A stretch of 64,000 nt of DNA from an uncultured virus (IMG/VR IMGVR_UViG_3300020048_000043) (taxonomy: Duplodnaviria; Heunggongvirae; Uroviricota; Caudoviricetes): positions 1 to 64,000 of the IMG/VR virus record IMGVR_UViG_3300020048_000043; one strand, 5' to 3'. The notes under the pieces were generated by a model that did no database searches, was not told the origin of the DNA, and was given only the letters and a program-made list of their open reading frames with translations. Shown here piece after piece: positions 22,474-47,110 of the stretch. How positions within the stretch are numbered: the stretch's first letter is position 1; each line of letters starts with the position of its first letter. The translations under genes were made by a program, and so were the position numbers.

Positions 22474-22755
22474 TCAGCCTTCCATATGTAAAGAATTTTT
22501 ATTATTAATAAATCTTTTTACTGTATTTTTTACTTCATCCGGTGCGTGGTTTAATTCTATGAATAAATAATTATTTTGTATAAAAAATGTATATCCACTA
22601 TCACCCCATTGATCATATGGACCTATTTCGTTTTTATCAATATATTCTGTAAGATAATTTTGAAGATATGCCCATGGACCATCACCAAGTTCAGACTTAT
22701 GAATTACAAAAGAACTACTACTGCTGTTGCTTATAAACCCATTTCTAATTTTCAT
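22474..22755 (-). CDS. SNSSSSS-tag family protein 1
   Basis: N-terminus MKIRNGFISNSSSSSF (ATG 22755). Confidence 0.75.
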   Translation of the reverse strand: MKIRNGFISNSSSSSFVIHKSELGDGPWAYLQNYLTEYIDKNEIGPYDQWGDSGYTFFIQNNYLFIELNHAPDEVKNTVKRFINNKNSLHMEG

Positions 22756-23169
22756 TAACTTTCTCCTCGTCTTCAAATTCCGTAGATTCTGTAAGTCTAT
22801 CTAATGAATCTGTTGTAGGATGATGTGGAATTTCTGTAAGTCTTTTAGGTCTACCTCTTTGTTTCTTTTCTTCTTTAATTTGTCCATCCTCTTCACGAAG
22901 CCATTCCACTGCGGAACTTGGATTTTTTGTACTCATGATAAAACCCTCCTCAATTTACTGTAGGTTTAGTTGATTCTTTTTCCAATAATGATAAAACACT
23001 AATAGCTTTTTGTGTTGTAGAATTCAAAGCAGTCATACATTCTGCTAGTTCTGTTGTTATTATTTTTTGTTCCAATTGTTCTTTTAAATGAGGTATTTGT
23101 TGTATATTTGCTTGTATGATTGGATTCGATAAATATTCTAATACAATATTTATAAATTCTTGTAAGAAG

Positions 23170-23541
23170 TTAATATTTTGTGCCATCCGAATCCTCCTTT
23201 TGTTTTAAAAAATTATATCTTATATTACATAGTATACAACGATTTAACAAATCTTTCAAGGATGACTCTTTATCTATTTTATAATTAATAATAGATTCAT
23301 CTAGATATGAAAAATTTGGAAGGATGAATTGCTTTACTGGTTTATATCCTCTTCGAAGCATTTCGTTCTTTAATTCAATATACCTAGACTCCAAAGATGT
23401 GAGTTCAAGACAATTGTTTTTGATATATCCATCTAAATTTTTCTTAGCGTTGATTGTTCCAACTAATGTGAATAATTCTCTATATTCTCCTAAGAGATGT
23501 TGTCTACAAAGAATCTTAGGATCACACATCCACATCCGCAT
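23170..23541 (-). CDS. denV: Pyrimidine dimer DNA glycosylase / endonuclease V family
   Basis: MRMW..DPKILCRQHLLGEYRE and EMLRRGY signature. Confidence 0.85.
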   Translation of the reverse strand: MRMWMCDPKILCRQHLLGEYRELFTLVGTINAKKNLDGYIKNNCLELTSLESRYIELKNEMLRRGYKPVKQFILPNFSYLDESIINYKIDKESSLKDLLNRCILCNIRYNFLKQKEDSDGTKY

Positions 23542-23736
23542 TTTGTTCTTTTCTCTTTCGTCTACATTTCAATAATTCGTGTTCTTGAAAAAGTTTTTTT
23601 GTTATATTACCAACATCATCTTGAAATTTAATCCAATACATATATGTATCTTTATTTGATATTATTTCATCTACGTGACCCATCATTTCAACTTTTGTAA
23701 ATCTTGTATATACTCTATCACGTAAATTAAATTTAT

Positions 23737-23883
23737 TCATTTTTTTACCATATGATTTATTTTCTGATATAGTTTTTGTTTTTCATAACATTCTGTACAA
23801 AGAAAATAATCTAGATTTTCACCATACATAATATATTCTGATTCGTGTTCAAGAATCTTACCGCATAGTTTACATTTTTTCAT
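23737..23883 (-). CDS. Small zinc-finger-like protein (48 aa, not in the track)
   Basis: AGGAGG RBS; CKLC...CTEC; ATGA overlap with the next gene. Confidence 0.5.
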   Translation of the reverse strand: MKKCKLCGKILEHESEYIMYGENLDYFLCTECYEKQKLYQKINHMVKK

Positions 23884-23896
23884 AATTATTCCTCCT

Positions 23897-44059: not shown

Positions 44060-44133
44060 AGCAATTCCTCCTTAAAATAAATAATAATGAACAGTTTTTT
44101 AATGGGAAACTGTTCAAAAACCCAAGATATATT

Positions 44134-45564
44134 TTATTTTACATTTTGTTTCTTAGTAATAACATATAGTAAACATACAAACATTAGAATTGTGATAGCA
44201 TGAGATGTATCTGCGTTAGTTGTATTACAACCGCCACCACCAGAAGAAGGCGTAGCAAGTTGTGTGATATTAAAAGTATCATTTACAGAATTAATTTCAA
44301 CTTCAATTCTATGGCCCAATGATGTTGTTACAACATATTTTGCGTTAGGAACAATTTCTACAATATCTCCATTTACATATGTATTTCTATTTCCTCCATT
44401 AATTGTCCATGTAAATGTAGCATTAGGAACATTCACATGAACTTTTCCTTTTTCTGCTTCTTCAAATAAATGATCCCTAAAGAAATATCCAAAATCAAAA
44501 TTAGGTTCCCACATAGCATTCACTAAACTAAAACCATGATGACCCGCTTGTCTTTCTGTTGGATGATTATCTATTTGAAATTGTACAACAATCCATGAAA
44601 TACTATTTTCTTTTATAAATTTCATTAAATCTTCACGAAATCTTCCTGGGCCTGGCCAAAAAGATTCTAAAGCATATTCCAAATCTGGACCAACGGTAGG
44701 CCACTGTTCTATATTCCAATAAGAAAATTCTGTAATTATAACTGGTTTTTGTTGTACTGTAGGTCTTACCCACGCATTATAATTATCTAAACCTGTAGTA
44801 TGAGGTCCTCTTCTACCATTCCAAGGAAATGGATGAAATCCATAAGATATATTAGAACCATTAACTGGATTTGTAAGAGCATATCTTAATTCGGAAGTAG
44901 CGTCAGGTCCATTACAAATAATAATTTTCTTTTGATCATATTGTCTTATTTTAGATATTACTTCTGTTTCATAAAAATTCTTTAATCTCATCCATTCATC
45001 GAAATGTGATTTATCTTTTGCTGTTAATGGTTCATTGAGTAATTCATATGCTAAAATTACATTTTCATTTACAAAATGTTTTGCTATTGCTTCCCATACT
45101 TCTGTTATTTCTTCTGTTGTTGTATAAATAATATCTGGATAATATTTTTCATCCAGCATATAACCATTAAATGGACAAATAATACTATGCCAATTTAAAA
45201 TAATATATAGATTATGTTTTTTAGCATAATTTACATATGTTTCTATTTCTTTTAAATAATTATCTATACCAATATGTCTATAATACGCTGGCATAAGATT
45301 AATACGAACTACATTACTACCCCATTGTCTTGCCGTATTAAACGCATTAGTTAAAAATGTATCATTCCAATGTTTTTGTGGAAGAAAACGTCTATCTTCA
45401 AAAATACCTACACCATAAAATTTAACTGGTTGATTTAAACTATTTACAATTTGATTTCCTTGTACTCTAAATGTATCTGGATAAATTGCAGCAAATGATA
45501 TATTACTAAAAAGAAATATTACACACAAACTCATTAGAATACTATTTCGAATTTTCTTAAACAT
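44134..45564 (-). CDS. Secreted glycoside hydrolase family 5 with a C-terminal membrane sorting signal
   Basis: Signal peptide; NVVR, WH, ELLNEP (acid/base) and ITEFS (nucleophile); C-terminal SSGGGGCN + TM + basic tail. Confidence 0.85.
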   Translation of the reverse strand: MFKKIRNSILMSLCVIFLFSNISFAAIYPDTFRVQGNQIVNSLNQPVKFYGVGIFEDRRFLPQKHWNDTFLTNAFNTARQWGSNVVRINLMPAYYRHIGIDNYLKEIETYVNYAKKHNLYIILNWHSIICPFNGYMLDEKYYPDIIYTTTEEITEVWEAIAKHFVNENVILAYELLNEPLTAKDKSHFDEWMRLKNFYETEVISKIRQYDQKKIIICNGPDATSELRYALTNPVNGSNISYGFHPFPWNGRRGPHTTGLDNYNAWVRPTVQQKPVIITEFSYWNIEQWPTVGPDLEYALESFWPGPGRFREDLMKFIKENSISWIVVQFQIDNHPTERQAGHHGFSLVNAMWEPNFDFGYFFRDHLFEEAEKGKVHVNVPNATFTWTINGGNRNTYVNGDIVEIVPNAKYVVTTSLGHRIEVEINSVNDTFNITQLATPSSGGGGCNTTNADTSHAITILMFVCLLYVITKKQNVK

Positions 45565-46120
45565 TTAAAACACCTCTTTCTTAAATTAATGGAAGATAAG
45601 TAGCATCTTCGCCAAACAACTTCATAATTTCATGCGCTTTTTTACATGTTTCTTCATTTCTTAAATCATAATTTCCTTCTTCATACATTACCCCCCATAA
45701 TTTTATACATTCCATAAATACAGCAAACATACTCTGCTGAAGTGTGCGATGTGTTCTGTATACAATATTTTCTGCAAATTCTTTTTTTGATTTATTATCA
45801 AATGTATTTACAAAATCTTCAAACATACTTGCCATTTCTTTCCCACTGGGTTTATTCGACATATTCAAATACCTCCTTGTTTTCAATTCTTTCATCACGT
45901 TCATTAAAAAAGAATCTTTTCTTAATACCATCGGAATATGTGCGTTGACAAATTTCAACTTCTACACCAATTATTTTTTGACCTTTATCTATAGTTCCAT
46001 TCCATGTTTTTTTAAAATTTTGAATAACTCTATTAATATCACTACCTTTGAATACACGATTAGCATGTGTACCCAATCTTGTAGACATATCTTCGTAAAT
46101 CGCTCGGAGATAATAAACCA

Positions 46121-46597
46121 TTATTTAACATCTCCTATTTTTTGACTAAGTTGTTCTTTTGCTGCTTTCATAAGAAGAATAAGTAGCATTTGCTGTTCTG
46201 TTTCTGTCAAATATTTTTTTGTTTCGTTAATATCTATTATTGCTTTAGGTTCTTCTTTCATGAAATTCATTTTAGTAAATTCTTTTATAACATCTACAGG
46301 TATTACTTCGTTTAATATTCTTACATAAAAGTGTGTTTCTCTTTCTTTAGGTATTACTTCGTTTAATATTCTTACATAAAAGTGTGTTTCTCTTTCTTTC
46401 AACGCTTCTATCATCATATCATCTGTCAATATTTCAAATGCTTCATCTATAATCTCTTCTGGTTCAAAAATATCTTTCATAGATAATGTATTTTTAAGTT
46501 CATTTATCAATTCTGTATCATCTACATCAACTTTTATATAATAACTACCTGAATTTTCTTGAAGCATATCTAGCGTTAGCCAATTTCTATATTCCAT
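46121..46597 (-). CDS. Hypothetical protein with a 17 aa tandem duplication
   Basis: KERETHFYVRILNEVIP occurs twice. Confidence 0.6.
   Translation of the reverse strand: MEYRNWLTLDMLQENSGSYYIKVDVDDTELINELKNTLSMKDIFEPEEIIDEAFEILTDDMMIEALKERETHFYVRILNEVIPKERETHFYVRILNEVIPVDVIKEFTKMNFMKEEPKAIIDINETKKYLTETEQQMLLILLMKAAKEQLSQKIGDVK
46298..46399. repeat. Perfect 51 bp tandem duplication
   Basis: AGGTATTACTTCG...CTCTTTCTTT at 46298-46348 and 46349-46399. Confidence 0.95.
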
Positions 46598-46753
46598 TTT
46601 TTATTTCCTCCTTTTCAGGTTTAAAAACAATTGCTATTCCTATTGATTGACAAAATTCAGACAAATAAGAATTATCTATTAAACCAACAGGTTTATTGGT
46701 TTTCTCAAAAATAATTGTAGAAAACTTCTCCGCATATTCCACTCTAAACATTT

Positions 46754-47110
46754 CTAATACCACTCCAATTCATCCAGAATGACTTGTGGGTCTCCAAACA
46801 TTTTAATAAGTTTTTGTAGATTTTCATTTTCTTTTAATTCTTTTTTAAGATAAATAATTTTTTGTTCAAGTTTTTCGAGTCTTTCATTTCCTGTTGGAAT
46901 TTGAATCACAATCAAATCTTCGCGCATAATTAAATCTTGATAAAAAGAATTCAAATATTTTTGAATTTCAACATAAGCATCTTCATTTTTAAAATTTGGA
47001 TCAAAATGTATTTGAATAAACTGTTCTATTTGATCCGGATCTAATTGCCAACCTACACCCAAGAAACTACTACTACTACTGTTTGATACAAATCCTATTC
47101 TAATTTTCAT
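46754..47110 (-). CDS. SNSSSSS-tag family protein 8
   Basis: MKIRIGFVSNSSSSSFLGVGW. Confidence 0.75.
   Translation of the reverse strand: MKIRIGFVSNSSSSSFLGVGWQLDPDQIEQFIQIHFDPNFKNEDAYVEIQKYLNSFYQDLIMREDLIVIQIPTGNERLEKLEQKIIYLKKELKENENLQKLIKMFGDPQVILDELEWY

What the first reader, a model, noticed from the sequence alone, without database searches (positions are those of the whole stretch)
22474..47110. Eight proteins share an N-terminal SNSSSSS tag alongside a radical SAM enzyme: candidate phage protein-modification system
Seen: eight - strand genes (starts 22755, 24604, 26651, 31774, 36248, 36621, 37028, 47110) begin with MK(I/L/C)R(N/M/I)G(F/W)(V/I)SNSS(S/T)(S/C)SF and then diverge into 93-235 aa proteins of several types. 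The tag serines use mixed AGY and TCN codons, so conservation is at the protein level and not a recent DNA duplication. One position alternates Ser/Cys. A radical SAM enzyme with a Twitch/SPASM-like tail (30065-31096) lies two genes from tag protein 4. Established: SPASM/Twitch rSAMs typically modify peptides or proteins, and anaerobic sulfatase maturases oxidise either Ser or Cys to formylglycine. Inference: the tag is a portable recognition or modification site acted on by the phage rSAM. I know of no characterised function for this motif.
Basis: partly seen in the sequence, partly recalled or inferred. Interest (0 to 1): 0.85.

Follow-up and report, generated by a model that had tools for sequence, protein, structure and literature searches.

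The report
Phage protein tag and radical-SAM enzyme
Nine otherwise unrelated small proteins of a large phage begin with the same 16-residue tag, and across many phages (and some bacterial immune gene clusters) this tag travels with one dedicated radical-SAM enzyme that probably binds and chemically modifies it.

Summary
Eight minus-strand genes in the window, plus a ninth elsewhere in the same 122-kb phage record, start with MK(I/L/C)RxG(F/W)(V/I)SNSS(S/T)(S/C)SF. Each has its own ribosome-binding site and uses mixed Ser codons.

The tag marks a very large uncharacterised family: 20,978 representative clusters, nearly always starting at residue 1. It sits on bodies with no detectable sequence homology to one another.

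The proposed link to the radical SAM (rSAM) enzyme holds up:
- 52 of 70 tag-bearing viral records carry this rSAM family (phrog_7293), including 13 of 13 near-complete ones.
- 69 of 80 rSAM loci have tag genes within 10 kb, and 284 of 285 of those are co-directional, often as tandem arrays just downstream.
- The pair occurs in RNA-polymerase-encoding jumbo phages, in cultured T4-like phages (Escherichia phage Lw1, Klebsiella phage KP27, Vibrio phage D479), and in a bacterial SMEK-NACHT cassette.
- Tag variants ("dialects") follow the genome, not the body family.
- AlphaFold2 leaves tag residues 1-11 disordered. A controlled co-fold places exactly those residues in the rSAM barrel (0.81 against a best control of 0.49).

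No modification has been shown and the chemistry is unknown. The Ser/Cys hint fails, because that position is S/T/A/C across the family. I found no publication on the tag.

The parts
22474..22755 (-). Tag protein 1 (93 aa), MKIRNGFISNSSSSSF + 'VIHKSEL' type body
   Evidence: RBS gaggagaaag; phrog_7397 positions 1-19; body homologues P0157, P0048 and others
23897..24604 (-). Tag protein 2 (235 aa), TTG start
   Evidence: phrog_7397 E 9.7e-5
25977..26651 (-). Tag protein 3 (224 aa)
   Evidence: 17 body homologues at 80-91% identity
30065..31096 (-). Radical SAM enzyme with a single-auxiliary-cluster (Twitch-like) C-terminal domain; cluster motif C52-x7-C60-x2-C63; auxiliary Cys C250, C275, C293, C338; N-terminal hairpin YNYIFNKDNGFFARWG
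   Evidence: phrog_7293 E 1.5e-76; PF13186 22.1 bits; invariant residues in 39 homologues; weak BtrN and SkfB similarity
31110..31433 (-). 107-aa gene between the rSAM and tag gene 4; no family match; not a conserved member of the module
   Evidence: no Pfam or PHROG match; no conserved third gene family in 80 rSAM loci
31430..31774 (-). Tag protein 4 (114 aa), MKLRMGWVSNSSSCSF + 'ITN' type body with FGDEDG and DYxLRD motifs; the copy nearest the rSAM
   Evidence: AlphaFold2 pLDDT 89, residues 1-11 below 50; co-fold with the rSAM
35907..36248 (-). Tag protein 5 (113 aa), TTG start, MKCRNGFVSNSSSCSF
36262..36621 (-). Tag protein 6 (119 aa), 'SSF-VGIGW' type body
   Evidence: AlphaFold2 pLDDT 85.9, residues 1-10 below 50, strand 1 = residues 13-23
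36636..37028 (-). Tag protein 7 (130 aa), paralogue of protein 6
37044..37430 (-). Tagless paralogue (128 aa) of tag proteins 6 and 7; starts MSNFIYIGWK, that is, at the position of strand 1
   Evidence: (body hits P0189, P0207, P0068, P0038)
46754..47110 (-). Tag protein 8 (118 aa), MKIRIGFVSNSSSSSF, 'LGVGW' type body

Best explanation
The 16-residue N-terminus is a portable substrate and recognition arm for the phage's own Twitch-type radical SAM enzyme. One enzyme per genome serves 3-15 small proteins whose bodies show no detectable sequence homology.

Proposed mechanism:
- Tag residues 1-11 form a flexible arm ahead of the first strand of each folded body (predicted).
- The enzyme's conserved N-terminal hairpin (GFFARWG) captures residues 1-7 by strand pairing, with K2 against the conserved acidic DDP patch (predicted).
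- This threads the near-invariant V8-S9-N10-S11-S12 core into the barrel over SAM (predicted).
- The 5'-deoxyadenosyl radical then abstracts a hydrogen from one of these residues, and the single auxiliary cluster completes a two-electron oxidation or a cross-link (inferred).

My single most likely product is oxidation of a Ser to an aldehyde, as in BtrN or anSME. I give this only about 30% of this scenario. A Ser/Asn ether or carbon cross-link, or an epimerisation, are alternatives.

Biologically, the modified arm would arm, stabilise or address a fast-evolving set of early phage proteins used in phage-host conflict (inferred).
For: Co-occurrence
- Tag to rSAM: 36 of 49 plus 16 of 21, giving 52 of 70 records. 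Among records at least 90% complete: 8 of 8 plus 5 of 5, giving 13 of 13. Controls: 0 of 14 well-known genomes.
- rSAM to tag: 69 of 80 loci have a tag within 10 kb. Of the other 11 records, 10 have a profile match elsewhere in the record.

Gene order
- 284 of 285 tags lie on the rSAM strand, 224 of them downstream. The first downstream tag is within 100 bp in 13 of 54 loci and within 1 kb in 36 of 54. Arrays reach 14 tags.

Breadth
- The rSAMs are only 35-62% identical to the window's.
- The window phage encodes split multisubunit RNA polymerase genes. Cultured carriers are T4-like: Lw1 with 2 tags, KP27 with 2, and Vibrio phage D479 with 5.
- A third context is bacterial-type MAG contigs, where an identical tag gene sits immediately upstream of an rSAM only 27-31% identical.

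Dialects
- All 9 tags of L163 read TF at positions 6-7. All 4 of L147 read SL. All 4 of L150 read GH or CH.
- 30 of 39 variant-tag bodies have GF-tagged homologues in other phages, so the dialect follows the genome and not the body.

Structure
- AlphaFold2 gives residues 1-11 and 1-10 at pLDDT below 50 in two body types that are otherwise confident.

Co-fold
- Score 0.81 against a best control of 0.49. This mark was reached by 116 of 157 solved complexes and 2 of 215 mismatched pairs.
- The runs agree in at least 31% of contacts, and the partner pLDDT is at least 45.
- The interface is tag residues 1-11 against the rSAM hairpin (20-27), D31-D33, and barrel residues that are invariant in the family: D45, Q94, A96, N123, T125, G149, A152, N177, H179, V210, L212, D248.

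Other
- No third conserved gene accompanies the pair.
- The enzyme weakly resembles peptide and protein maturases: TIGR04317 in 29 of 39 members and MftC in 21 of 39. It also weakly resembles the BtrN Twitch domain.
Against: - No chemical modification has been observed. Everything rests on comparative genomics and predicted structures.
- One of the three co-fold runs scored 0.38.
- The control that kept the tag protein and swapped the rSAM still scored 0.49, so the arm tends to dock on other proteins in the model.
- The partner's own fold was uncertain in the high-scoring runs (pLDDT 46-48). The job also differed from the tool's calibration, because it used my own alignments and carried ligands.
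- 18 of 70 tag-bearing records lack the rSAM. All are under 90% complete, but two are 88% and 79% complete.
- In the window phage, and in Lw1 and KP27, most tag genes lie 5-55 kb from the rSAM rather than in an operon.
- The tag is far more conserved than the enzyme. It is identical at 27-31% enzyme identity, which is unusual for a mere recognition sequence and suggests a further constraint that I cannot name.
- The tag-seeded and rSAM-seeded locus sets overlap in contigs, so the two co-occurrence tests are not independent.
Confidence: 0.62

Rival explanations
1. Adaptor or regulator model. The tag is a docking handle, not the substrate. The variable bodies bind different targets and bring them to the rSAM, much as F-box proteins act as adaptors. 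Alternatively, the tagged proteins act as pseudo-substrates that gate the enzyme.
For: The geometry is one enzyme to many bodies, with 3-15 tags per near-complete genome. The bodies are diverse and not detectably homologous. The tag is conserved far beyond the enzyme. The co-fold shows binding only, not chemistry.
Against: The predicted interface runs into the catalytic barrel and touches family-invariant residues, rather than a peripheral surface. The most conserved tag residues, S9-S12, lie at the inner end of the arm. The bodies are small (about 80-220 aa) and no common target is evident.
Confidence: 0.15
2. Co-inheritance without direct interaction. The tag serves another role, such as a packaging, localisation or degradation signal, or an oligomerisation strand. 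An example from recall is the T4 capsid-targeting sequence of internal proteins. The rSAM would do unrelated chemistry, for example on nucleotides or DNA.
For: In the window, Lw1 and KP27 most tag genes are far from the rSAM. The swapped-enzyme control scored 0.49. KP15/KP27-type phages are reported to have an unexplained DNA modification (PMC5219037, passages read).
Against: Co-occurrence runs in both directions and the genes are tightly co-directional next to each other. This is seen in three unrelated genomic contexts, at 27-62% enzyme identity. Per-genome tag dialects exist. No prohead protease site or other conserved partner gene was found.
Confidence: 0.12
3. The tag is simply the first strand and active-site loop of one ancient shared fold, so the nine proteins are ordinary paralogues.
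For: Residues 13-16 (SxSF) do begin strand 1 in both models. Both models are small alpha/beta sandwiches with a similar order of elements. Proteins 6, 7 and 8 are true paralogues, and so are protein 4 and the ninth copy.
Against: Residues 1-10/11 lie outside the fold. Of 78 pairs among 13 tag-stripped families, 0 reach 90% hhalign probability and 1 reaches 50%. A tagless paralogue keeps the body. I could not superpose the two models, so a distant common fold is not excluded.
Confidence: 0.06

Closest known systems
Leader-guided radical SAM/SPASM peptide maturases of RiPP pathways (PqqE, MftC, sactipeptide and streptide synthases)
   Same: The enzyme is an rSAM with a C-terminal auxiliary-cluster domain. 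It is encoded next to genes whose products share a conserved N-terminal segment and vary afterwards. In the co-fold the conserved segment pairs as a strand with an N-terminal element of the enzyme. There is weak HMM similarity to these families.
   Different: No family cut-off is approached (best about 33 bits against 380). The substrates are folded proteins of 80-250 aa, not short peptides. The conserved segment itself, rather than a downstream core, sits in the barrel. No RRE domain, protease or exporter is conserved nearby. The system is viral, with 3-15 substrates per enzyme.
Twitch/SPASM dehydrogenases BtrN and anaerobic sulfatase-maturing enzyme (anSME)
   Same: There is a single-cluster Twitch-like tail: four invariant Cys and BtrN similarity at E 0.002 over residues 279-339. 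anSME acts on Ser or Cys of a full-length protein (recalled).
   Different: The tag lacks the C/S-x-P/A-x-R sulfatase motif (seen directly in the sequence). The supposed Ser/Cys position is S/T/A/C. No anSME model appears among the NCBIfam matches shown.
FxSxx-type peptide plus rSAM-SPASM modules in NTP-dependent conflict systems (Kaur et al. 2020, PMC7159879; passages read)
   Same: An rSAM/SPASM enzyme with a standalone peptide or protein partner is embedded beside STAND-type NTPases in conflict systems. The bacterial version found here sits in a SMEK_N-NACHT cassette.
   Different: There the conserved motif is C-terminal and processed by a peptidase. Here it is an N-terminal tag and no peptidase is present. 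The passages I read do not describe this tag.
PHROG families phrog_7397 and phrog_7293
   Same: The window proteins match both. All eight tag proteins match positions 1 to about 20 of phrog_7397 (17.5-23.5 bits). The rSAM matches phrog_7293 at E 1.5e-76.
   Different: Both families are listed as 'unknown function'. The library records no link between them.

Membership tests
Radical SAM superfamily | Three-Cys motif (CxxxCxxC or a spaced variant) binding the SAM-cleaving [4Fe-4S] cluster, in a TIM-barrel core | tested here: met
   C52, C60 and C63 are invariant in 39 of 39 homologues. Many have the canonical Cx3Cx2C, while the window copy has Cx7Cx2C through an insertion. PF04055 scores 16.5 bits in the window copy, below the 29.5 cut-off, but 51.7 bits in the bacterial homologue.
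SPASM subfamily (two auxiliary clusters) | Seven-Cys C-terminal motif binding two auxiliary [4Fe-4S] clusters | tested here: not met
   Only four C-terminal Cys are invariant: C250, C275, C293 and C338. PF13186 just passes, at 22.1 bits against 21.5.
Twitch subfamily (one auxiliary cluster) | Truncated SPASM-like domain with one auxiliary cluster | tested here: inconclusive
   The four invariant Cys fit one cluster. Similarity is weak: BtrN E 0.002 and SkfB E 0.005, and NF033640 matches 6 of 39 members. Cluster content cannot be tested with these tools.
Anaerobic sulfatase-maturing enzyme system | Substrate motif C/S-x-P/A-x-R, with the Ser/Cys being the modified residue | tested here: not met
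   The tag has no P/A-x-R after any Ser. Position 14 tolerates Ala in 7% of tags.
RiPP biosynthetic cluster | Short precursor peptide with leader and core, plus a leader-removal protease and/or an exporter | tested here: not met
   The partners are folded proteins with pLDDT 86-89. No conserved protease, exporter or other third gene was found in 80 loci.
Glycyl-radical protein with activase | An invariant Gly in an RVxG[FWY] loop that carries the radical | tested here: not met
   G6 is replaced by T, S or C in all tags of whole genomes (L163, L147, and one of the four L150 tags). The spacing is R-x-G, not R-V-x-G.
Three-residue cyclophane (triceptide) systems | An aromatic residue at position 1 of an aromatic-X-X motif, cross-linked to residue 3 (motif recalled) | tested here: inconclusive
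   F/W/H/Y-V-S fits in most tags (98% F). However, position 7 is L in all four L147 tags and M in others. The enzyme lacks the two-cluster SPASM domain.
phrog_7397 / phrog_7293 | HMM match | tested here: met
   all eight tag proteins match phrog_7397 positions 1 to about 20, and the rSAM matches phrog_7293 over 342 of 384 positions.

The most novel reading that the evidence does not exclude
The tag and its radical SAM enzyme form a general viral protein-tagging system. One enzyme installs a still-unknown covalent modification on a universal 16-residue N-terminal arm. That arm activates or addresses a hypervariable arsenal of early phage proteins. Bacteria have captured the same enzyme-tag pair inside NACHT (NLR-like) immune cassettes, so the modified tag would be a shared currency of phage-host conflict. 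The system could be studied directly in Escherichia phage Lw1 on E. coli BL21.
Probability: 0.35. Interest if true: 0.9.

Novelty: new variant of a known kind. Interest (0 to 1): 0.8.

Why it matters
The tag defines one of the larger unannotated protein families in phage and metagenome data, about 21,000 clusters at 50% identity. All members that carried a source name were called hypothetical, and none had a Pfam domain.

Tying the family to a single dedicated radical SAM enzyme turns thousands of orphan genes into one testable biochemical question. It suggests a new enzyme-substrate class: leader-like recognition, but on folded proteins, in viruses. It also links that class to bacterial NLR-type immunity.

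The system is present in cultured phages of laboratory E. coli, so the chemistry and phenotype can be measured directly. A short, portable, enzyme-addressable N-terminal tag could also be useful as a protein-engineering handle.

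Tried and rejected
- Pfam and NCBIfam on the tag proteins gave nothing.
- megablast of 18 kb of the window, and tblastn of tag protein 6, against the isolate phage collection found no match. 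The low-complexity filter probably masks the Ser run.
- A single-protein rSAM query in viral contigs confirmed nothing. It worked once an alignment was used.
- Fold searches gave no convincing known fold.
  - Model of protein 4: Foldseek PDB had 0 matches at E<=1e-3, BFVD had 0, and VIA wide had a best Z of 4.4.
  - Model of protein 6: VIA wide had a best Z of 3.4.
- Literature searches found nothing relevant, within the open-access library only.
  - Motif strings: 10 unrelated papers and 0 papers.
  - 'phage radical SAM' phrasings: 0 papers.
  - rSAM with jumbo phage or RiPP terms: nothing relevant in the listings.
  - rSAM with RB43, KP15 or KP27: nothing on these genes.
  - SMEK, NACHT and rSAM together: nothing.
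- The KP15/KP27 paper says nothing on the tag proteins or the rSAM. Its supplements were not read.
- A glycyl radical at G6 and a universal F7-S9 cyclophane were considered and set aside because of the dialect variants.
- The bacterial tag body and the 125-aa cassette protein have no homologue in the viral loci I hold.
- PADLOC has no model for the window rSAM or for tag protein 4.

Full report
**1. The observation**

Listing ORFs in 21-48.5 kb and a six-frame motif scan confirm eight minus-strand genes. They start at 22755, 24604, 26651, 31774, 36248, 36621, 37028 and 47110, and all open with MK[ILC]R[NMI]G[FW][VI]SNSS[ST][SC]SF. After the tag they diverge into proteins of 93-235 aa.

The window lies in a 122,295-bp IMG/VR virus record that is linear, with a CheckV completeness estimate of 44%. 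The record carries a ninth copy at position 85105, outside the window.

Every copy has an AGGAGG-like ribosome-binding site directly upstream. The tag begins at the start codon, and the serines mix AGY and TCN codons. Conservation is therefore on the protein, not on repeated DNA.

The gene at 37044-37430 is a paralogue of the proteins at 36262-36621 and 36636-37028. It lacks the tag and begins where their first strand begins.

**2. How wide the tag family is**

Pfam and NCBIfam find nothing in the tag proteins. PHROGs has a family of unknown function, phrog_7397, that matches only the first 17-58 residues.

A profile of the first 32 residues was searched against 1.84 billion representative proteins. 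It gave 20,978 proteins at E<=0.001. Among the best 150, nearly all matches start at residue 1, and the proteins are mostly 80-250 aa. All hits that carried a source name were 'hypothetical', and none had a Pfam domain.

From viral loci I collected 443 unique tag sequences with a loose anchor that fixed G6 and N10. Of these, 435 begin exactly at a start codon. The composition of those 435 is as follows:

| Position | Residues |
|---|---|
| 2 | K 98% |
| 4 | R 99% |
| 7 | F 98% |
| 8 | V 95% |
| 9 | S 99% |
| 11 | S 100% |
| 12 | S 100% |
| 13 | S 83%, T 13% |
| 14 | S 75%, T 12%, A 7%, C 2% |
| 15 | S 96% |
| 16 | F 94%, Y 4% |

The Ser/Cys alternation seen in the window is therefore part of a tolerant position and is no sign of Ser/Cys chemistry.

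**3. The enzyme**

The gene at 30065-31096 matches phrog_7293 (unknown function) at E 1.5e-76. It also matches SPASM PF13186 just above its cut-off.

In an alignment of 39 homologues at 39-54% identity to the window copy, the invariant residues include:
- the SAM-cluster cysteines C52, C60 and C63;
- four C-terminal cysteines, C250, C275, C293 and C338, which fit one auxiliary cluster (Twitch-like, not a full SPASM domain);
- many barrel residues;
- parts of an N-terminal hairpin, YNYxFNxxxGFFxRWGKTxxDDP.

Similarity to solved structures is weak: BtrN at E 0.002 and SkfB at E 0.005. Similarity to curated families is also weak. The best are peptide and protein maturases, namely TIGR04317 in 29 of 39 members and MftC in 21 of 39, all far below their cut-offs. 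The nearest ESM Atlas clusters are almost entirely viral.

**4. Co-occurrence and gene order**

Starting from tags:
- 76 viral loci were fetched.
- The rSAM family was found in 36 of 49 and 16 of 21 of their records, 52 of 70 in all. One record was not held and so was not searched.
- Among records at least 90% complete, the rSAM was found in 8 of 8 and 5 of 5.
- It was found in 0 of 14 control genomes.
- The 18 records without it are 5-88% complete.

Starting from the rSAM, with 80 loci:
- 69 have at least one tag within 10 kb.
- Of 285 tags, 284 lie on the rSAM strand, 224 of them downstream.
- Many form tandem arrays beginning 20-300 bp after the enzyme.
- Of the 11 loci without a regex tag, 10 have a profile match elsewhere in the record. 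One of those is only a decayed 25-codon remnant. Several were missed only because their tags are variants.

The two locus sets share contigs, so they are not independent samples.

For scale, the rSAM occurs in 172 of 50,697 isolate phage records. Thirteen near-complete genomes carry 3-15 tag matches each (97 in total, median 7) for one rSAM. No other gene family accompanies the pair. The next most frequent non-tag family is present in 12 of 80 loci.

**5. Breadth**

- The window phage has split multisubunit RNA-polymerase genes typical of phiKZ-like jumbo phages.
- The cultured carriers are T4-like Straboviridae plus a Vibrio phage. They are Escherichia phage Lw1 (rSAM Lw1_gp161; tags Lw1_gp111 and Lw1_gp116), Klebsiella phage KP27 (rSAM KP27_176; tags KP27_124 and KP27_130), and Vibrio phage D479 (five tags).
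- In the species-representative genome collection the tag was confirmed in 25 loci, all on MAG contigs and none in an isolate genome. Fifteen of the 25 carry the rSAM within the locus.
- Seven of those 15 loci are of a distinct bacterial type, with GC 51-64% and one on a 1.47-Mb contig. There, a single tag gene with a standard tag is followed at once by an rSAM only 27-31% identical to the window's.
- In six of these seven loci, a SMEK_N-NACHT NTPase and a 125-aa protein lie upstream. In one locus the cassette sits among integrase-like genes (my reading of the ORFs; not scanned).
- The NTPase resembles Avs2 in PADLOC.
- This bacterial tag body has no homologue in the viral loci I hold.

**6. 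Dialects**

A few genomes deviate from the GF consensus at positions 6-7, and all their tags deviate together:
- 9 of 9 read TF in L163, which also has a basic residue at position 3.
- 4 of 4 read SL in L147.
- 3 read GH and 1 reads CH in L150.

Their enzymes have unusual hairpins, with insertions in L147 and L163.

Of 39 variant-tag proteins, 30 have body homologues that carry the GF tag in other phages. That count is not de-duplicated across overlapping loci. The dialect therefore follows the genome, not the body family, as expected if all tags in a genome answer to one partner.

The variants also show that G6 and an aromatic residue at position 7 are dispensable. This argues against a glycyl radical at G6 and against a universal Phe-Ser cyclophane.

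**7. Structure**

AlphaFold2 on two body types gave confident small alpha/beta domains:
- Protein 4, with 28 sequences: pLDDT 89.
- Protein 6, with 26 sequences: pLDDT 86.

In both models residues 1-11 or 1-10 fall below pLDDT 50, and strand 1 starts at residue 13. Neither body matches a solved fold convincingly.

Thirteen tag-stripped body families show no profile homology. Of 78 pairs, none reaches 90% probability and one reaches 60%. The alignments are small, and I could not superpose the two models.

**8. Co-fold**

I co-folded the rSAM alignment with the protein 4 alignment, SAM and two [4Fe-4S] clusters. The tool's verdict is that the model supports binding but does not show it.

- The score is 0.81, from runs of 0.82, 0.38 and 0.81.
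- The best control is 0.49, with the tag protein kept and the enzyme swapped. The other two controls scored 0.00 and 0.01.
- The mark was reached by 116 of 157 solved complexes and 2 of 215 mismatched pairs.
- The runs agree in at least 31% of contacts, and the partner pLDDT is at least 45.
- The calibration holds only roughly here, because I used my own alignments and ligands rode along.

The confident interface is tag residues 1-11 only. These are the same residues that are disordered in the monomer models. On the enzyme side the interface comprises:
- the hairpin, residues 20-27;
- D31-D33, with K2 against D33;
- barrel residues that are invariant in the family.

**9. Reading**

| Claim | Status |
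|---|---|
| The tag and its family | shown |
| The two-way association, gene order, breadth and dialects | shown |
| A flexible arm that docks into the enzyme barrel | predicted |
| The arm is the substrate, and a hydrogen is abstracted from the V8-S12 core | inferred |
| Oxidation or a cross-link follows | inferred |
| The system acts in phage-host conflict | inferred |

The conflict role is suggested by three things: the position of the tag genes among early- and middle-type genes, their diversity, and the bacterial NACHT context.

I found no publication on the tag or on this enzyme's function in the searches listed under Tried and rejected. The closest published theme is rSAM-SPASM modules with peptide partners in NTP-dependent conflict systems (PMC7159879, passages read).

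Noticed in passing
L188:6736-11502 (also L175, L177, L178, L183, L186): This is a bacterial-type four-gene cassette: a SMEK_N-NACHT (Avs2-like) NTPase, a 125-aa protein, a tag protein and an rSAM. It was found on MAG contigs labelled Verrucomicrobiota and Acidobacteriota. In L188 the flanking ORFs look like integrases (my reading; not scanned).
   Followed up: partly
window 37044-37430 (-): This is a tagless paralogue sitting directly upstream of three tandem tag genes. It begins exactly at the strand-1 position, so the body can persist without the arm.
   Followed up: partly
window 26653-26916 and 26913-27242 (-): Two adjacent small genes share a different N-terminus, MKTKTTWLFKYW, and then diverge. 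This is a second case of a shared N-terminal segment in the same phage.
   Followed up: no
window 397-1584 (+), 56940-58163 (+); L001:13289-14416 (-): Three IS605 OrfB/TnpB-type (Cas12f1-like TNB domain) genes lie inside a phage genome.
   Followed up: no
window 44134-45564 (-): This is a glycoside hydrolase family 5 (cellulase) gene with a hydrophobic N-terminus and a hydrophobic C-terminal tail. It is embedded among phage replication genes.
   Followed up: no
window 41421-44059 (-); L002:7766-8896 (-): An NAD-related gene set: an NAD-dependent DNA ligase, a NADAR domain protein and a nicotinamide-nucleotide adenylyltransferase. A ThiF-like protein at 56126-56761 and a DUF488 protein at 51169-51576 lie nearby.
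   Followed up: no
window 46121-46597 (-): This ORF contains an exact internal duplication of about 16 residues (RETHFYVRILNEVIP appears twice).
   Followed up: no
G007, G008, G011, G063; L091:7076-7804: The rSAM match is split into two pieces, 0.1-1.2 kb apart, in four viral records. In Vibrio phage D479 an annotated homing endonuclease abuts the gene. This suggests that mobile insertions target this gene.
   Followed up: no
L100:9555 (G071:C1:13811-13840): This is a decayed tag: MKIRNGFVSN followed by stop codons, within a 25-codon frame beside an intact rSAM.
   Followed up: partly
L001:1564-7567, L002:11971-18634: Two sets of split multisubunit RNA polymerase beta/beta' genes place the window phage among phiKZ-like jumbo phages.
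   Followed up: partly
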